The notes under the pieces: model-generated | Seen by the model: the letters and a program-made list of their open reading frames with translations, nothing else | Told to the model about the DNA's origin: nothing | Databases searched by the model: none | Assembly: GCF_024502345.1 (NCBI RefSeq) | Contig: NZ_JALDNN010000001.1 | Source: Escherichia coli | GTDB lineage: Bacteria > Pseudomonadota > Gammaproteobacteria > Enterobacterales > Enterobacteriaceae | Direction: 5' to 3' (one strand) | Length of the DNA: 64,000 nt | Shown here: in pieces, positions 39,729 to 55,462 of the stretch | Position numbering within the stretch: position 1 is the first letter of the stretch | Layout of the letters: every line of letters begins with the position of its first letter | Made by a program: the position numbers and the translations under genes

Positions 39729-41183
39729 ATGTATATCGGGATAGATCTTGGCACCTCGGGCGTAAAAGTTATTTTGCTCAACGAGCAGGGTGAGGTGGTT
39801 GCTTCGCAAACGGAAAAGCTGACCGTTTCGCGCCCGCATCCACTCTGGTCGGAACAAGACCCGGAACAGTGGTGGCAGGCAACTGATCGCGCAATGAAAG
39901 CTCTGGGCGATCAGCATTCTCTGCAGGACGTTAAAGCATTGGGTATTGCCGGCCAGATGCATGGAGCAACCTTACTGGATGCTCAACAACGGGTATTGCG
40001 CCCTGCCATTTTGTGGAACGACGGGCGCTGTGCGCAAGAGTGCACTTTGCTGGAAGCGAGAGTTCCGCAATCACGAGTGATTACCGGCAACCTGATGATG
40101 CCCGGATTTACTGCGCCTAAATTGCTATGGGTTCAGCGGCATGAGCCGGAGATATTCCGTCAAATCGACAAAGTATTATTACCGAAAGATTACTTGCGTC
40201 TGCGTATGACGGGGGAGTTTGCCAGCGATATGTCTGACGCAGCTGGCACCATGTGGCTGGATGTCGCAAAGCGTGACTGGAGTGACGTCATGCTGCAGGC
40301 TTGCGACTTATCTCGTGACCAGATGCCCGCATTATACGAAGGCAGCGAAATTACTGGTGCTTTGTTACCTGAAGTTGCGAAAGCGTGGGGTATGGCGACG
40401 GTGCCAGTTGTCGCAGGCGGTGGCGACAATGCAGCTGGTGCAGTTGGTGTGGGAATGGTTGATGCTAATCAGGCAATGTTATCGCTGGGGACGTCGGGGG
40501 TCTATTTTGCTGTCAGCGAAGGGTTCTTAAGCAAGCCAGAAAGCGCTGTACACAGCTTTTGCCATGCGCTACCGCAGCGTTGGCATTTAATGTCTGTAAT
40601 GCTGAGTGCAGCATCGTGTCTGGATTGGGTCGCGAAATTAACCGGCCTGTGCAATGTCCCAGCTTTAATCGCTGCAGCTCAACAGGCTGATGAAAGTGCC
40701 GAGCCAGTTTGGTTTCTGCCTTATCTTTCCGGCGAGCGTACACCACACAATAATCCCCAGGCGAAGGGGGTTTTCTTTGGTTTGACTCATCAACATGGCC
40801 CCAATGAACTGGCGCGAGCAGTGCTGGAAGGCGTGGGTTATGCGCTGGCAGATGGCATGGATGTCGTGCATGCCTGCGGCATTAAACCGCAAAGTGTTAC
40901 GTTGATTGGTGGCGGGGCGCGTAGTGAGTACTGGCGTCAGATGCTGGCGGATATCAGCGGTCAGCAGCTCGATTACCGTACGGGGGGGGATGTGGGGCCA
41001 GCACTGGGCGCAGCAAGGCTGGCGCAGATTGCGGCGAATCCAGAGAAATCGCTCATTGAGTTGTTGCCGCAGCTACCGTTAGAACAGTCGCATCTACCAG
41101 ATGCGCAGCGTTATGCCGCTTATCAGCCACGACGTGAAACGTTCCGTCGCCTCTATCAGCAACTTCTGCCATTAATGGCGTAA
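39729..41183 (+). CDS. xylB: Xylulokinase
   Basis: 484 aa, FGGY kinase N-terminus MYIGIDLGTSGVK. Confidence 0.95.
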   Translation: MYIGIDLGTSGVKVILLNEQGEVVASQTEKLTVSRPHPLWSEQDPEQWWQATDRAMKALGDQHSLQDVKALGIAGQMHGATLLDAQQRVLRPAILWNDGRCAQECTLLEARVPQSRVITGNLMMPGFTAPKLLWVQRHEPEIFRQIDKVLLPKDYLRLRMTGEFASDMSDAAGTMWLDVAKRDWSDVMLQACDLSRDQMPALYEGSEITGALLPEVAKAWGMATVPVVAGGGDNAAGAVGVGMVDANQAMLSLGTSGVYFAVSEGFLSKPESAVHSFCHALPQRWHLMSVMLSAASCLDWVAKLTGLCNVPALIAAAQQADESAEPVWFLPYLSGERTPHNNPQAKGVFFGLTHQHGPNELARAVLEGVGYALADGMDVVHACGIKPQSVTLIGGGARSEYWRQMLADISGQQLDYRTGGDVGPALGAARLAQIAANPEKSLIELLPQLPLEQSHLPDAQRYAAYQPRRETFRRLYQQLLPLMA

Positions 41184-51304: not shown

Positions 51305-53638
51305 TTGGCCAACTCATCCTCACGATATTCCGTTCTGACTGCCGCCCATTGGGGGCCCATGCTGGTTGAAACCGACGGCGAAACCGTGTTTAGCTCGCGT
51401 GGCGCGTTAGCCACAGGAATGGAAAACTCCTTGCAGAGCGCGGTTCGCGACCAGGTTCACAGCAATACGCGGGTACGATTTCCAATGGTGCGCAAAGGCT
51501 TTCTCGCGTCACCGGAAAACCCGCAAGGCATTCGTGGGCAGGATGAATTTGTTCGCGTGAGTTGGGATGAGGCGCTGGATCTTATTCACCAACAACATAA
51601 ACGCATTCGTGAGGCTTATGGTCCGGCATCGATTTTTGCTGGTTCCTACGGCTGGCGTTCAAACGGCGTGCTGCATAAGGCCTCGACATTATTACAACGC
51701 TATATGGCGCTGGCAGGCGGTTATACCGGGCATCTGGGGGATTATTCGACCGGCGCGGCACAGGCGATCATGCCGTATGTCGTGGGTGGTAGTGAAGTTT
51801 ATCAACAGCAGACCAGTTGGCCGCTGGTGCTGGAACATAGCGATGTCGTGGTGCTGTGGAGTGCTAACCCACTCAATACGCTGAAAATTGCGTGGAATGC
51901 ATCCGATGAGCAGGGGCTTTCTTACTTTTCTGCACTGCGTGACAGCGGGAAAAAGCTGATCTGCATTGATCCAATGCGATCGGAAACCGTCGATTTCTTT
52001 GGCTATAAAATGGAGTGGGTGGCACCGCACATGGGCACCGATGTTGCGCTGATGCTGGGGATCGCCCATACGCTGGTGGAAAATGGTTGGCACGACGAAG
52101 CGTTTCTGGCGCGTTGCACCACAGGTTATGCCGTCTTCGCCTCTTATTTGCTGGGCGAGAGTGACGGAATAGCGAAAAACGCCGAATGGGCGGCAGAGAT
52201 TTGTGGTGTTGGCGCAGCGAAAATCCGCGAGCTGGCGGCTATTTTCCACCAAAATACCACCATGCTGATGGCAGGCTGGGGAATGCAGCGCCAACAGTTT
52301 GGTGAGCAAAAACACTGGATGATCGTCACGCTGGCAGCAATGTTGGGGCAAATCGGCACACCCGGCGGCGGTTTTGGTCTTTCTTACCATTTTGCCAATG
52401 GTGGTAACCCCACGCGGCGCGCTGCGGTACTCTCTTCCATGCAGGGCAGCTTGCCGGGTGGCTGCGATGCGGTAGATAAAATCCCTGTCGCCCGCATTGT
52501 TGAAGCACTGGAAAACCCTGGTGGCGCATATCAACACAACGGTATGAACCGACATTTCCCGGATATTCGTTTTATCTGGTGGGCGGGCGGTGCCAACTTT
52601 ACTCATCATCAGGATACCAATCGCCTGATCCGTGCCTGGCAAAAACCGGAGCTGGTGGTGATCTCTGAATGCTTCTGGACGGCGGCGGCAAAACACGCGG
52701 ATATCGTTCTGCCTGCGACTACCTCTTTTGAGCGTAATGATCTCACCATGACCGGTGATTACAGTAATCAGCATCTGGTGCCGATGAAGCAAGTGGTGCC
52801 GCCACGCTATGAAGCGCGTAATGATTTTGATGTTTTTGCCGAGTTAAGTGAACGCTGGGAGAAGGGCGGTTATGCACGTTTTACGGAAGGAAAAAGTGAG
52901 CTGCAATGGCTGGAAACGTTTTATAACGTTGCCCGACAGCGCGGGGCAAGCCAGCAGGTTGAATTGCCGCCATTTGCTGAGTTCTGGCAAGCCAATCAGT
53001 TAATTGAGATGCCGGAAAACCCGGACAGCGAGCGGTTTATTCGCTTCGCTGATTTTTGCCGCGATCCGCAGGCGCATCCATTAAAAACCGCCAGCGGTAA
53101 GATTGAAATCTTCTCGCAGCGTATTGCCGATTACGCTTATCCGGATTGCCCGGGGCATCCAATGTGGCTGGTGCCGGACGAATGGCAGGGCAATGCCGAA
53201 CCGGAACAGTTACAGGTACTTTCTGCTCATCCGGCGCATCGTCTGCACAGCCAGCTGAATTACAGTTCTCTGCGCGAATTGTACGCGGTGGCAAACCGTG
53301 AGCCTGTCACCATTCATCCTGACGATGCCCAGGCGCGCGGCATACAAGATGGCGATACTGTTCGGCTGTGGAACTCACGCGGGCAAATTCTTGCCGGAGC
53401 GGTCATTAGCGAGGGAATTAAACCTGGCGTGATTTGCATTCACGAAGGGGCATGGCCGGATCTGGATTTAACCGCTGACGGTATTTGTAAAAACGGCGCA
53501 GTGAACGTGCTGACCAAAGATCTCCCCAGCTCGCGGCTGGGGAATGGCTGTGCGGGTAATACGGCGCTGGCATGGCTAGAAAAATACAACGGCCCGGAAC
53601 TGACACTTACAGCGTTTGAACCACCGGCCAGCTCATAA
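51305..53638 (+). CDS. bisC: Biotin sulfoxide reductase (molybdoenzyme)
   Basis: 777-aa ORF of the DMSO reductase family. Confidence 0.93.
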
Positions 53639-54047
53639 TCCAGGTGGGTAGTTGGGTTTCATCCTGCCATGCGCAATCGACAATGTGAAAACCCTGCGCC
53701 TGGTAAAAATCTATCGCCGGTTGATTTTTTTGATAAACCTCCAGCATCAGATGGGGATGGCGCTGTTGCACATACTGCATCAGCGCCTTACCAATACCGC
53801 GCCTGACGGCCTTCGGTGCGACAAACATCGCTGCCAGAAATCGGCCTTCCATAATGCTGACAAAACCGAGAAGCTTACTGTCTTCTTCCCAGACCCAGTT
53901 TTGTGCGTTGGCAAGATAGGCATCCCGCACCAGTGGAATGCACTCGCGCCAGTAATTCGCTTTTATAAAGGGATGGCCCCAGGTTGTACTTTCCAGCCAC
54001 AGTTCGAGGATCGCGGGGAGTTCTGAACGTTGCGCTTCCCTAATCAT
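53607..54047 (-). CDS. yiaC: GNAT-family N-acetyltransferase YiaC
   Basis: 146 aa; convergent with bisC, 3' ends overlap by 32 bp. Confidence 0.85.
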
Positions 54048-54607
54048 GGTTTATTTCCCGGATAGCAACAGCAGCCAACCACATGATCATTCACCAGCCC
54101 ACATGCCTGCATAAAGGAGTAACAGATTGTGGTACCGACAAACTTAAAACCACGTTTTTTCAGTGCCTTAGATAGGGCGTCGGAGGCGGGCGTAGATGTG
54201 GGGATTTCGCTCAACGTTGTGGCTTGTGTCACCTGTGGCTGATGATTTACAAACGACCAGACAAAGTCGGCAAACGGTTCGCCGTTCTGTTCCATTTGCA
54301 GGTACGCCCGCGCATTACCAATAATTGCCTGAATTTTCCCGCGATGGCGGATAATCCCGGCGTCCTGTACCAGTCTTTCGACATCCTCTTCCTGCATTGC
54401 GGCAACCTTCACCGGATCGAACTGATGAAAGCAGGCGCGATAGTTTTCGCGTTTTTTGAGGACGGTGATCCACGATAACCCAGCCTGCTGCCCTTCCAGG
54501 CAGATCATTTCGAACAGTTTTTTACTGTCAGTTTCAGGCACGCCCCACTCATTATCATGGTAGGCAATATAAAGCGGGTCCTGACTCACCCAGCCGCAAC
54601 GTTCCAT
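54044..54607 (-). CDS. tag: DNA-3-methyladenine glycosylase I
   Basis: 187 aa from MERCGWVSQDPLYIAYHDNEWGVPETD; ORF-track entry has a 55-codon upstream extension. Confidence 0.93.
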   Translation of the reverse strand: MERCGWVSQDPLYIAYHDNEWGVPETDSKKLFEMICLEGQQAGLSWITVLKKRENYRACFHQFDPVKVAAMQEEDVERLVQDAGIIRHRGKIQAIIGNARAYLQMEQNGEPFADFVWSFVNHQPQVTQATTLSEIPTSTPASDALSKALKKRGFKFVGTTICYSFMQACGLVNDHVVGCCCYPGNKP

Positions 54608-54697
54608 ACTTTCCCTCGCTATGTACCCGATCGTAAAAATTTCAGCCGCTTTTCTTGACGCATCGGTGAAAAAGTCAATATTTAATACAGGGCTACT

Positions 54698-55462
54698 ATG
54701 CCCGATATCCTTCATACAATGACAATAATATTGCCGAATTCGGCTCTTCCCTGGAGTCGTGTTAATGATCATAAAAAAAGCGGTGGTCGCTGGCAGCTAA
54801 GCCTGCTGGCGAGTGTGGTAATCAGTGCCTTTTTTCTCAACACAGCTTACGCCTGGCAACAAGAATATATCGTTGATACGCAACCCGGGCATTCCACAGA
54901 GCGTTACACCTGGGATAGTGAACATCAACCTGATTACAACGATATTTTGTCGCAACGTATTCAAAGTAGCCAAAGGGCGCTGGGACTGGAAGTCAATCTG
55001 GCGGAAGAAACCCCTGTGGATGTGACCAGCAGTATGAGTATGGGCTGGAATTTTCCTTTATATGAACAGGTTACAACTGGCCCGGTCGCGGCATTACATT
55101 ACGATGGCACAACCACCTCGATGTATAACGAGTTTGGCGACAGTACTACCACGCTGACCGATCCGTTATGGCATGCCAGCGTGAGTACCTTAGGCTGGCG
55201 TGTTGACTCCCGGCTTGGCGAGCTCCGACCCTGGGCGCAAATCAGCTATAACCAGCAATTTGGCGAGAATATCTGGAAGGCGCAATCAGGCCTGAGCCGG
55301 ATGACGGCGACAAACCAGAACGGCAACTGGCTGGATGTCACCGTAGGCGCTGATATGTTGCTCAATCAAAATATTGCCGCCTATGCCGCGCTATCTCAGG
55401 CAGAAAATACCACTAACAATAGCGATTATCTGTATACGATGGGGGTTAGTGCCAGATTTTAA
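54698..55462 (+). CDS. yhjY: YhjY (autotransporter-like outer-membrane protein); start codon uncertain
   Basis: Open frame of 254 codons ending in a C-terminal Phe. The best-RBS ATG (54765) is out of frame by 1 nt across an A7 tract; in-frame ATGs at 54698 and 54719 have weak RBS. Confidence 0.6.
   Translation: MPDILHTMTIILPNSALPWSRVNDHKKSGGRWQLSLLASVVISAFFLNTAYAWQQEYIVDTQPGHSTERYTWDSEHQPDYNDILSQRIQSSQRALGLEVNLAEETPVDVTSSMSMGWNFPLYEQVTTGPVAALHYDGTTTSMYNEFGDSTTTLTDPLWHASVSTLGWRVDSRLGELRPWAQISYNQQFGENIWKAQSGLSRMTATNQNGNWLDVTVGADMLLNQNIAAYAALSQAENTTNNSDYLYTMGVSARF

What the first reader, a model, noticed from the sequence alone, without database searches (positions are those of the whole stretch)
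54698..54800. A7 tract puts the best-RBS start codon of yhjY out of frame
The ATG at 54765, preceded by a GGAG Shine-Dalgarno, reads atg atc ata aaa aaa gcg ... and stops after 11 codons. With one more A in the A7 tract (54773–54779) it would read MIIKKSGGRWQLSLLASVVISAFFLNTAYA, a canonical signal peptide, and give a 232-aa protein, which is the length I recall for K-12 YhjY. As it stands the long frame is only reachable from weaker upstream ATGs (54698, 54719). This could be a homopolymer sequencing error, a strain-specific inactivating indel, or a slipped-strand on/off switch for an outer-membrane protein.
Basis: partly seen in the sequence, partly recalled or inferred. Interest (0 to 1): 0.45.

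Follow-up and report, generated by a model that had tools for sequence, protein, structure and literature searches.

The report
One-base deletion frameshifts yhjY start
This E. coli lineage has really lost one A from an eight-A run at the start of the outer-membrane protein gene yhjY, which cuts the gene off from its normal start codon; this is an ordinary inherited homopolymer frameshift, not a sequencing error and not a detectable on/off switch.

Summary
Window 54773-54779 is A7. The ATG at 54765, with a GGAG Shine-Dalgarno, stops after 11 codons. K-12 has A8 and a 232-aa YhjY. That ATG, its Shine-Dalgarno, the promoter and the 5' UTR are conserved across Enterobacteriaceae genera, so it is the true start.

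The A7 is not an assembly error. Fourteen independent assemblies of the same lineage (isolates, Illumina gut metagenomes, Logan) are 99.91-99.97% identical to the window and all carry A7.

It is not a demonstrable phase switch:
- In 5,412 complete E. coli genomes, A7 is exact in 44, A8 in 4,162 and A9 in 28.
- Minus-one variants of three other K-12 A8/T8 tracts are as common (0.26-1.5%), and some are clearly assembly artefacts.
- Within the window's lineage, tract state follows the SNP-defined subclades, so one A8>A7 event is enough.

The most likely consequence is a null or strongly reduced allele. Residual protein could come from the in-frame upstream ATG at 54719, which PGAP uses to aa, or from rare -1 slippage on A_AAA_AAA.

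Side finding: the tract overlaps a predicted RybB pairing site in a strongly conserved leader. Interest is low.

The parts
54655..54682 (+). Probable yhjY promoter: -35 TTGACG (54655-54660), 16-nt spacer, -10 AATATT (54677-54682)
   Evidence: Consensus scan gives 9 of 12 matches. CTTGACG and GACAATATTTAATACAGGG are invariant or nearly so in 23 sequences from about 12 genera. No transcription start was measured.
54690..54703 (+). Predicted stem-loop at the 5' end of the mRNA, GGGC-uacuau-GCCC. It contains the non-conserved ATG 54698.
   Evidence: Folding. Orthologues keep a stem with different sequences, e.g. GGGCC/GGCCC, GGGU/GCCC, GGCU/AGCC. The G of the ATG at 54700 is predicted to be paired.
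54698..54700 (+). First upstream in-frame ATG, which opens the 254-aa ORF. It has a weak AGGG Shine-Dalgarno.
   Evidence: It is not conserved: TTG, GGG or AAG in other species. Gene callers for metagenome and Logan assemblies use it.
54719..54721 (+). Second upstream in-frame ATG, giving a 247-aa product. It has no Shine-Dalgarno and lies in an A/U-rich stretch that is mostly unpaired.
   Evidence: PGAP starts yhjY here in A7 genomes. SD energy is +0.3 kcal/mol and mean P(unpaired) is 0.70.
54741..54759 (+). Conserved hairpin CGGCUCU / loop / GGAGUCG that would sequester the Shine-Dalgarno GGAG (54753-54756). It overlaps the palindrome GCCGAATTCGGC (54733-54744).
   Evidence: RNAalifold on 24 sequences predicts 7 pairs kept in 23-24 of 24, with no covariation. 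P(unpaired) of the SD G residues is 0.03.
54765..54800 (+). Canonical yhjY start codon, now heading an 11-codon dead-end ORF (MIIKKAVVAGS, stop TAA 54798-54800)
   Evidence: The same ATG is the annotated start in K-12 and FDAARGOS_943 and is conserved in 54 orthologue loci.
54773..54779 (+). A7 homopolymer, one A shorter than the E. coli norm of A8. In the frame of ATG 54765 it is also a slippery A_AAA_AAA heptamer.
   Evidence: Alignment. Counts: A7 44, A8 4,162, A9 28 genomes.
54776..54787 (+). Predicted pairing site for the 5' end of the sRNA RybB (AAAAGCGGUGGU against RybB nt 1-12)
   Evidence: RNAduplex gives -17.5 kcal/mol and 12 contiguous pairs; 0.6% of 1,000 shuffles do as well. RybB sequence was read from MG1655. 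A TRIC-seq preprint lists yhjY as a new RybB target.
54787..54812 (+). 10-bp hairpin 7 nt downstream of the A tract, with the dead-end ORF's TAA in its loop
   Evidence: It is not more stable than shuffles (z = -0.10) and is not conserved in other species.
54779..55462 (+). Intact body of yhjY, from Ser6 of the canonical protein to the stop. The signal peptide ends AYA|W at 54853/54854. It carries an autotransporter-type beta-barrel domain.
   Evidence: ORF. Pfam PF03797 E = 1.1e-11. TIGR01414 scores above its cut-off. The body is identical to the A8 allele P0003.

Best explanation
The window carries a genuine, inherited one-base deletion (A8 to A7) in the homopolymer that spans codons 3-6 of yhjY. 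yhjY encodes a small outer-membrane beta-barrel protein.

The deletion puts the conserved start (GGAG, 8 nt, ATG 54765) out of frame with the rest of the gene. Ribosomes that start there make an 11-residue peptide and stop at 54798.

The 227 codons from Ser6 onward remain open. They can be read only three ways:
(a) from the Shine-Dalgarno-less ATG 54719, or less plausibly ATG 54698, inside the 5' UTR, which would give a precursor with a 15-22-residue longer N-terminus;
(b) by rare -1 ribosomal slippage on A_AAA_AAA;
(c) by RNA polymerase adding an A.
Routes (b) and (c) would recreate exactly the wild-type MIIKKSGG... protein.

The net effect is most likely a null or strongly hypomorphic yhjY allele fixed in one commensal E. 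coli lineage. It arose by ordinary replication slippage and was not selected as a switch.

Shown: the deletion, its heritability, the identity of the true start, and the lack of excess tract variability. Inferred: the reduction in protein and the routes of residual expression.
For: - Deletion relative to K-12 and the nearest complete genome.
- True start: the ATG, SD, leader and promoter are conserved in 54 loci from Escherichia, Citrobacter, Salmonella, Kosakonia, Lelliottia and others. It also has the strongest SD.
- Polarity of change: other Escherichia species and many Citrobacter have an in-frame AAAAAAA-T (ATA AAA AAA TGC). E. coli A8 came from T>A, and the window lacks that base.
- Heritability: 14 loci 99.91-99.97% identical to the window all carry A7. 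The products are on 36+12 contigs.
- Single origin within the lineage: A7 loci carry the markers 53679A, 56260G or 52004T. A8 loci with the same protein carry 52576T or the ancestral haplotype. The two sets do not mix.
- Ordinary frequency: A7 0.81% and A9 0.52%, against 0.26%, 0.40% and 1.5% for -1 variants of three other A8/T8 tracts.
- Leakiness: A_AA.A_AA.A frameshifts at more than 0.10% without stimulators, against a 0.055% background (PMC4066793).
Against: - No expression data were available, so loss of protein is inferred.
- PGAP does not flag the allele as a pseudogene. It calls a 247-aa protein.
- The ORF body is still intact in every locus seen, and the allele has spread widely; for the window's own allele the index lists the 254-aa product in 74 blocks, and another A7 haplotype, P0005, is on 272 contigs. 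This would also fit a tolerated, still-functional allele.
- ATG 54719 lies in an accessible A/U-rich stretch, while the canonical SD is predicted to be mostly paired. Initiation upstream could therefore be less negligible than the SD scores suggest.
Confidence: 0.67

Rival explanations
1. The A7 allele is functionally near-neutral. Translation from ATG 54719 yields a precursor with a longer signal-peptide n-region, which is exported and cleaved at AYA|W to the same mature protein.
For: - The ORF is open from 54719, and PGAP annotates it that way.
- ATG 54719 is predicted to be accessible and probably lies inside the transcript, given the conserved promoter and 5' hairpin.
- A7 alleles persist in several expanded lineages with an intact body.
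Against: - ATG 54719 has no Shine-Dalgarno (+0.3 kcal/mol).
- The leader upstream of the tract is identical to K-12 from 54680 (the aligned stretch), so no compensatory change has occurred there.
- Ribosomes loading at the strong canonical site read a dead-end frame.
- Export of the extended signal peptide was not tested.
Confidence: 0.2
2. The A tract is a slipped-strand contingency switch that turns an outer-membrane protein on (A8) and off (A7 or A9) at elevated rates.
For: - The homopolymer lies at the 5' end of an OMP gene.
- A7, A8 and A9 all occur in natural genomes.
- A7 sits on at least 4 distinct yhjY haplotypes, so the mutation recurs.
- Indel rates rise exponentially with run length (PMC8510543).
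Against: - The frequency is not above three control A8/T8 tracts.
- Part of the A7 signal comes from assemblies with several homopolymer -1 calls: JL05 is in all three lists, and the ETEC17xx project accounts for 14 of 19 rlmI hits and one yhjY hit.
- 19 of the 28 A9 genomes are one laboratory K-12 clone.
- No reversal is needed to explain the 25 sequences of this lineage (the window and 24 loci).
- The tract is interrupted in many orthologues, e.g. ATA AGA AAC.
- Eight A:T pairs is short for a contingency locus in a mismatch-repair-proficient organism (general knowledge).
Confidence: 0.06
3. The frameshift is compensated during gene expression. Efficient -1 ribosomal frameshifting on A_AAA_AAA, helped by the hairpin 7 nt downstream, or transcriptional slippage restores useful amounts of wild-type YhjY.
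For: - The heptamer is in the correct register, and a -1 shift gives exactly MIIKKSGG....
- A 10-bp hairpin lies at a suitable spacing.
- A_AA.A_AA.A is shift-prone and is used by IS elements (PMC4066793).
- Compensatory frameshifting at homopolymer indels is a known concept (PMC5009743).
Against: - Without stimulators the motifs reach only about 2-10 times the 0.055% background.
- The hairpin is no more stable than shuffles (z = -0.10) and is not conserved.
- Homologues are in frame, so there is no history of selection for recoding.
- Robust transcriptional slippage is described for runs of 9.
Confidence: 0.05
4. The A7 is a homopolymer sequencing or assembly error in this window.
For: - Homopolymer -1 errors clearly exist in public complete genomes.
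- No complete RefSeq genome is identical to the window across this locus.
Against: - 14 independent assemblies of the same lineage from different sources and technologies all have A7.
- Tract state tracks the SNP subclades.
Confidence: 0.02

Closest known systems
Canonical yhjY (b3548) of E. coli K-12, a 232-aa putative outer-membrane protein with an autotransporter beta-barrel domain
   Same: Same locus and neighbours: bisC, yiaC, tag, yhjY, yhjX. The promoter-to-start stretch 54680-54772 that was aligned is identical to K-12, and the protein body differs from K-12 in this set only by D53E and D153E.
   Different: One A fewer in the tract, so the annotated K-12 start no longer reads the gene.
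Slipped-strand phase-variable (contingency) surface-protein genes, e.g. homopolymer-controlled outer-membrane genes of Neisseria, Haemophilus and Campylobacter (from general knowledge)
   Same: A homopolymer near the 5' end of an OMP gene whose length sets the reading frame. Natural length variants exist.
   Different: The tract is short and made of A:T. Its variability is not above that of control tracts, and it is stable within the lineage. No switching rate has been measured.
Programmed -1 frameshift sites of dnaX and IS elements (A_AAA_AAG/A with a downstream stem-loop), and compensatory frameshifting at homopolymer indels (PMC4066793, PMC5009743)
   Same: A slippery A_AAA_AAA heptamer in register, with a hairpin 7 nt downstream. 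A -1 shift would give the full-length product.
   Different: The arrangement is an accident of a recent deletion. It is not conserved, the hairpin is not significant, and the expected efficiency is a fraction of a percent.
RybB-regulated OMP mRNAs (ompA, ompC, ompW, fadL and others)
   Same: The 5' end of RybB is predicted to pair with the early coding region (54776-54787). yhjY is reported as a RybB partner by TRIC-seq.
   Different: Regulation of yhjY by RybB was not tested here. The site is retained in both the A7 and A8 alleles, so it does not explain the deletion.

Membership tests
Homopolymer frameshift allele (natural null or hypomorph) of a conserved gene | Indel in a mononucleotide run relative to intact orthologues | tested here: met
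   A7 against A8 in K-12 and FDAARGOS_943, and against in-frame A7+T in other Escherichia species.
Homopolymer frameshift allele (natural null or hypomorph) of a conserved gene | The indel separates the conserved translation start from the ORF | tested here: met
   The conserved SD-ATG now reads 11 codons and then TAA.
Homopolymer frameshift allele (natural null or hypomorph) of a conserved gene | Heritable: reproduced in independent assemblies of related strains | tested here: met
   14 of 14 related loci carry A7, and tract state is congruent with SNP subclades.
Homopolymer frameshift allele (natural null or hypomorph) of a conserved gene | Loss or strong reduction of the protein | not testable with these tools
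   Needs a Western blot, proteomics or reporter fusions.
Slipped-strand phase-variable contingency locus | Simple repeat in the promoter or 5' coding region whose length sets expression | tested here: met
   The A tract spans codons 3-6. A7 and A9 are out of frame and A8 is in frame.
Slipped-strand phase-variable contingency locus | Tract-length variation above that of comparable repeats | tested here: not met
   0.81% (A7) and 0.52% (A9), against 0.26%, 0.40% and 1.5% at three control A8/T8 tracts.
Slipped-strand phase-variable contingency locus | Reversible switching within a clone | tested here: not met
   25 sequences of this lineage (the window and 24 loci): no reversal is needed, and A7 and A8 subclades are distinct. 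Resolution is limited to about 5-7 kb.
Slipped-strand phase-variable contingency locus | High switching rate (about 1e-5 per generation or more) | not testable with these tools
   Needs a fluctuation or deep-sequencing assay.
Programmed -1 ribosomal frameshift site | X_XXY_YYZ slippery heptamer in the zero frame | tested here: met
   A_AAA_AAA at 54773-54779 in the frame of ATG 54765.
Programmed -1 ribosomal frameshift site | Stimulatory structure 5-9 nt downstream | tested here: inconclusive
   A 10-bp hairpin at 54787-54812 with a 7-nt spacer, but z = -0.10 against shuffles.
Programmed -1 ribosomal frameshift site | The frameshift arrangement is conserved among homologues | tested here: not met
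   All 54 orthologue loci, and at least 4,162 of 5,403 E. coli genomes (exact-flank A8), are in frame.
Autotransporter beta-barrel domain proteins (PF03797 / TIGR01414) | Significant match to the family profile | tested here: met
   PF03797 E = 1.1e-11 over residues 103-224 of the 247-aa form. TIGR01414 scores 22.2 bits against a cut-off of 16. Only the C-terminal half of each model is matched.

The most novel reading that the evidence does not exclude
The A tract at the start of yhjY acts as a low-rate slipped-strand switch. In its A7 state it remains leaky through -1 decoding on A_AAA_AAA. This would tune, rather than abolish, an envelope-stress (RybB)-regulated outer-membrane protein in natural E. 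coli populations.
Probability: 0.06. Interest if true: 0.45.

Novelty: new member of a known kind. Interest (0 to 1): 0.14.

Why it matters
There is little biological news here. The allele is a natural loss-of-function or hypomorphic variant of a poorly characterised outer-membrane protein gene, carried by a widespread commensal lineage.

It has three practical uses:
- It shows that the 247-aa and 254-aa "YhjY" proteins in public databases are start-codon artefacts of a frameshift allele rather than true isoforms.
- It supplies natural yhjY-deficient strains for anyone studying the gene.
- The control analysis shows that about 0.3-1.5% of complete E. coli assemblies differ by -1 at any given A8/T8 tract, partly through assembly error. 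That is a useful baseline when judging similar "phase-variation" candidates.

Tried and rejected
- Rfam scan of 54500-55000 at E<=10: only chance-level hits, no known RNA family.
- Folding of the region downstream of the tract and of the whole leader: neither is more stable than shuffles, z = -0.10 and -1.02.
- RNAalifold on 24 leaders: conserved pairs but no covariation, so the structure is unproven.
- Literature search for yhjY (20 papers): nothing on the A tract. Hits concerned a recurrent synonymous S21S change, an IS insertion, an intergenic mutation, OMP modelling, and RybB partnering.
- Assembly error was considered and rejected.
- A conserved uORF from ATG 54719 was considered and rejected on inspection of the aligned leaders, because its frame and stop differ between genera.
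- Re-initiation at CTG/GTG codons after the TAA at 54798 was considered. It cannot be tested here and is unlikely to give an exportable protein. PGAP uses such a downstream start, giving 219 aa, for A9 alleles.
- I did not identify the sequence type or serotype of the window's lineage.

Full report
**Observation.** The window reads ...CCTGGAGTCGTGTTA ATG ATC ATA AAA AAA GCG GTG GTC GCT GGC AGC TAA. The ATG is at 54765, the A7 run at 54773-54779 and the TAA at 54798-54800. The only long ORF over the gene runs 54698..55462 (254 aa), and a second in-frame ATG lies at 54719. The predicted Shine-Dalgarno pairing is -5.9 kcal/mol for ATG 54765, -3.1 for 54698 and +0.3 for 54719.

**Comparison with K-12 and other E. 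coli.**
- MG1655, C600 and the closest complete genome, FDAARGOS_943, have A8. FDAARGOS_943 is 99.92% identical to the window over 3.8 kb.
- In all three, yhjY is annotated as 699 nt (232 aa) starting at the Shine-Dalgarno-preceded ATG.
- All 30 rows sampled across the ranking of a 901-nt query were one base longer than the window at this locus, and none of the 5,422 hits reached 100% identity.

**Which start is the real one.** A scan of one genome per species returned 54 orthologue loci from Escherichia, Citrobacter, Salmonella, Kosakonia, Lelliottia, Silvania, Phytobacter, Siccibacter and others.
- The ATG, the CTGGAGTCG Shine-Dalgarno block, the leader and a promoter are invariant or nearly so across these genera. 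The promoter is CTTGACG, a 16-nt spacer and AATATT. This conservation is higher than in the signal-peptide codons that follow.
- Directly after the inferred transcription start lies a stem-loop whose sequence differs between genera while the stem is kept. This places the mRNA 5' end near 54689-54690.
- ATG 54765 is therefore the ancestral start. Both upstream ATGs lie in the 5' UTR. ATG 54698 is not conserved and sits partly inside the 5' hairpin.

**History of the tract.**
- Other Escherichia species and many Citrobacter read ATA AAA AAA TGC, an in-frame A7 followed by T.
- E. coli reads ATA AAA AAA AGC, so its A8 arose by a T>A change (Cys6 to Ser).
- The window has lost that eighth base.
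- Several genera have A8 with a different next codon. Others interrupt the run, for example ATA AGA AAC. The homopolymer is common but not maintained everywhere.

**Error or real?**
- The exact 254-aa and 247-aa products, which exist only with A7 on this haplotype, are on record on 36 and 12 contigs. The index lists the 254-aa form in 74 blocks.
- Fourteen fetched loci come from NCBI isolates, ENA human-gut metagenomes and Logan assemblies. They are 99.91-99.97% identical to the window over 5-6.8 kb, differ from one another by a few SNPs, and all have A7.
- The allele is therefore real and inherited.

**Switch or ordinary mutation?** Exact-match queries with 28-33-nt flanks against 5,426 complete E. 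coli genomes gave:

| Tract state | Genomes with an exact match | Genomes with a match |
|---|---|---|
| A7 | 44 | 5,412 |
| A8 | 4,162 | 5,403 |
| A9 | 28 | 5,412 |

- Nineteen of the 28 A9 genomes are one laboratory K-12 clone, the CV601/PG2018 series.
- A7 sits on at least four distinct yhjY haplotypes: the window's lineage, O157:H7 TR01, O111:H8 8E and a K-12-like haplotype. Two further 247-aa protein variants are on 272 and 47 contigs. The deletion therefore recurs.

As a baseline I deleted one base from three other A8/T8 tracts of MG1655 and ran the same exact-match search:

| Control tract | Exact -1 matches | Genomes with a match | Frequency |
|---|---|---|---|
| ycbF-pyrD intergenic | 14 | 5,410 | 0.26% |
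| rlmI coding | 19 | 4,737 | 0.40% |
| elfC coding | 59 | 3,834 | 1.5% |

- The yhjY figure of 0.81% lies inside this range.
- Some of the signal is artefact. Strain JL05 appears in the -1 lists of yhjY, rlmI and ycbF-pyrD.
- Fourteen of the 19 rlmI hits come from one ETEC sequencing project, which also contributes a yhjY A7 genome.
- Exact-flank counting undercounts in all cases, so the percentages are good only to within about a factor of two.

**Within the window's own lineage.** I compared 15 A7 sequences, the window included, with 10 loci that encode the same protein body but have A8.
- A7 sequences fall into subclades marked by 53679A, 56260G or 52004T. The window and L017 share 52004T.
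- A8 loci carry 52576T or the unmarked ancestral haplotype. L082 differs from the window only at 52004 and the tract over 12 kb. Three others are mosaic.
- No A8 locus carries an A7-subclade marker, and no A7 locus carries the A8 marker.
- A single A8>A7 event explains all of them. A fast reversible switch would be expected to scramble this pattern. Resolution is limited to a few SNPs in 5-7 kb.

**Consequence (inferred).**
- Ribosomes loading at the conserved site now make MIIKKAVVAGS and terminate.
- The leader from 54680 up to the tract is identical to K-12, so nothing there has compensated.
- One residual route is initiation at ATG 54719. It has no Shine-Dalgarno, lies in an accessible A/U-rich stretch and is the start PGAP picks.
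- The other routes are -1 slippage on A_AAA_AAA or an extra A added during transcription. Either would give exactly the wild-type N-terminus.
- Published measurements put A_AA.A_AA.A above 0.10% without stimulators, against a 0.055% background, with motif-to-background ratios of 2-10 (PMC4066793).
- A 10-bp hairpin starts 7 nt downstream, but it is no better than shuffles (z = -0.10) and is not conserved.
- I therefore expect a null or strong hypomorph. An exported, correctly processed 247-aa precursor cannot be excluded.
- The protein body carries an autotransporter-type beta-barrel match.

**Side findings.**
- The last four As of the tract plus GCGGUGGU (54776-54787) are predicted to form 12 contiguous pairs with the 5' end of RybB. 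The energy is -17.5 kcal/mol, and 0.6% of shuffles do as well. The same position is the best site in many orthologues.
- A TRIC-seq preprint lists yhjY among new RybB partners.
- The E. coli T>A change that created A8 also removes a bulge from this duplex, improving it from -13.7 to -17.5 kcal/mol.
- The leader contains an invariant palindrome, GCCGAATTCGGC, and an invariant hairpin that would sequester the Shine-Dalgarno. Neither shows covariation.

**Verdict.** The "sequencing error" reading is rejected, the "lineage-specific indel" reading is supported, and the "on/off switch" reading is not supported. This is an ordinary homopolymer frameshift allele of low general interest.

Noticed in passing
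window 54650-54765: The yhjY promoter and 5' UTR are more conserved across about 12 enterobacterial genera than the signal-peptide codons. The conserved parts are CTTGACG, GACAATATTTAATACAGGG, CAATGACAATAATAT, the palindrome GCCGAATTCGGC (54733-54744), and a hairpin CGGCUCU/GGAGUCG that would hide the Shine-Dalgarno. No Rfam family matches. This suggests an undescribed regulatory leader.
   Followed up: partly
window 54776-54787: Predicted 12-bp pairing with the 5' seed of the sRNA RybB (-17.5 kcal/mol). It overlaps the A tract and matches a TRIC-seq preprint that lists yhjY as a new RybB target. The E. coli-specific T>A change that made A8 also makes this duplex continuous.
   Followed up: partly
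window 57086-57093: A T8 run about 130 nt upstream of the first gene of the fimbrial operon downstream of yhjX is itself length-polymorphic. Three close relatives (L009, L012, L078) have T7.
   Followed up: no
window 57226-62719: A chaperone-usher fimbrial operon (major subunit, PapD-like chaperone, 857-aa usher, further subunits) lies downstream of yhjX, before the EptA/EptB-type sulfatase gene seen in relatives. K-12 similarity ends just after yhjX. From memory, this is the position of the lpf island in some pathotypes.
   Followed up: no
window 40982-40989: A G8 run lies inside an intact 484-aa ORF (39729-41183). G:C runs of this length are highly mutable, but the frame is open here.
   Followed up: no
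E. coli genomes records NZ_CP049936.1 (JL05) and the ETEC17xx/40xx series (CP1226xx-CP1229xx): These complete assemblies carry -1 calls at several unrelated A8/T8 tracts, including inside the conserved rlmI gene. They probably contain systematic homopolymer undercalls. Tract-length surveys based on complete genomes need this caveat.
   Followed up: partly
window 54044-54772, minus strand: The mechanical ORF list extends tag to 242 aa, from an ATG at 54772 that overlaps the yhjY start region. The annotated tag in relatives is 187 aa (54044-54607). The extension is an ORF-calling artefact.
   Followed up: yes
L020 (E. coli CV601, NZ_CP067994.1) and about 18 derived K-12 records: A laboratory K-12 lineage carries A9 in yhjY. 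PGAP annotates it as a 219-aa protein from a downstream start that would lack most of the signal peptide. This is another silent frameshift allele hidden by start-codon reassignment.
   Followed up: partly
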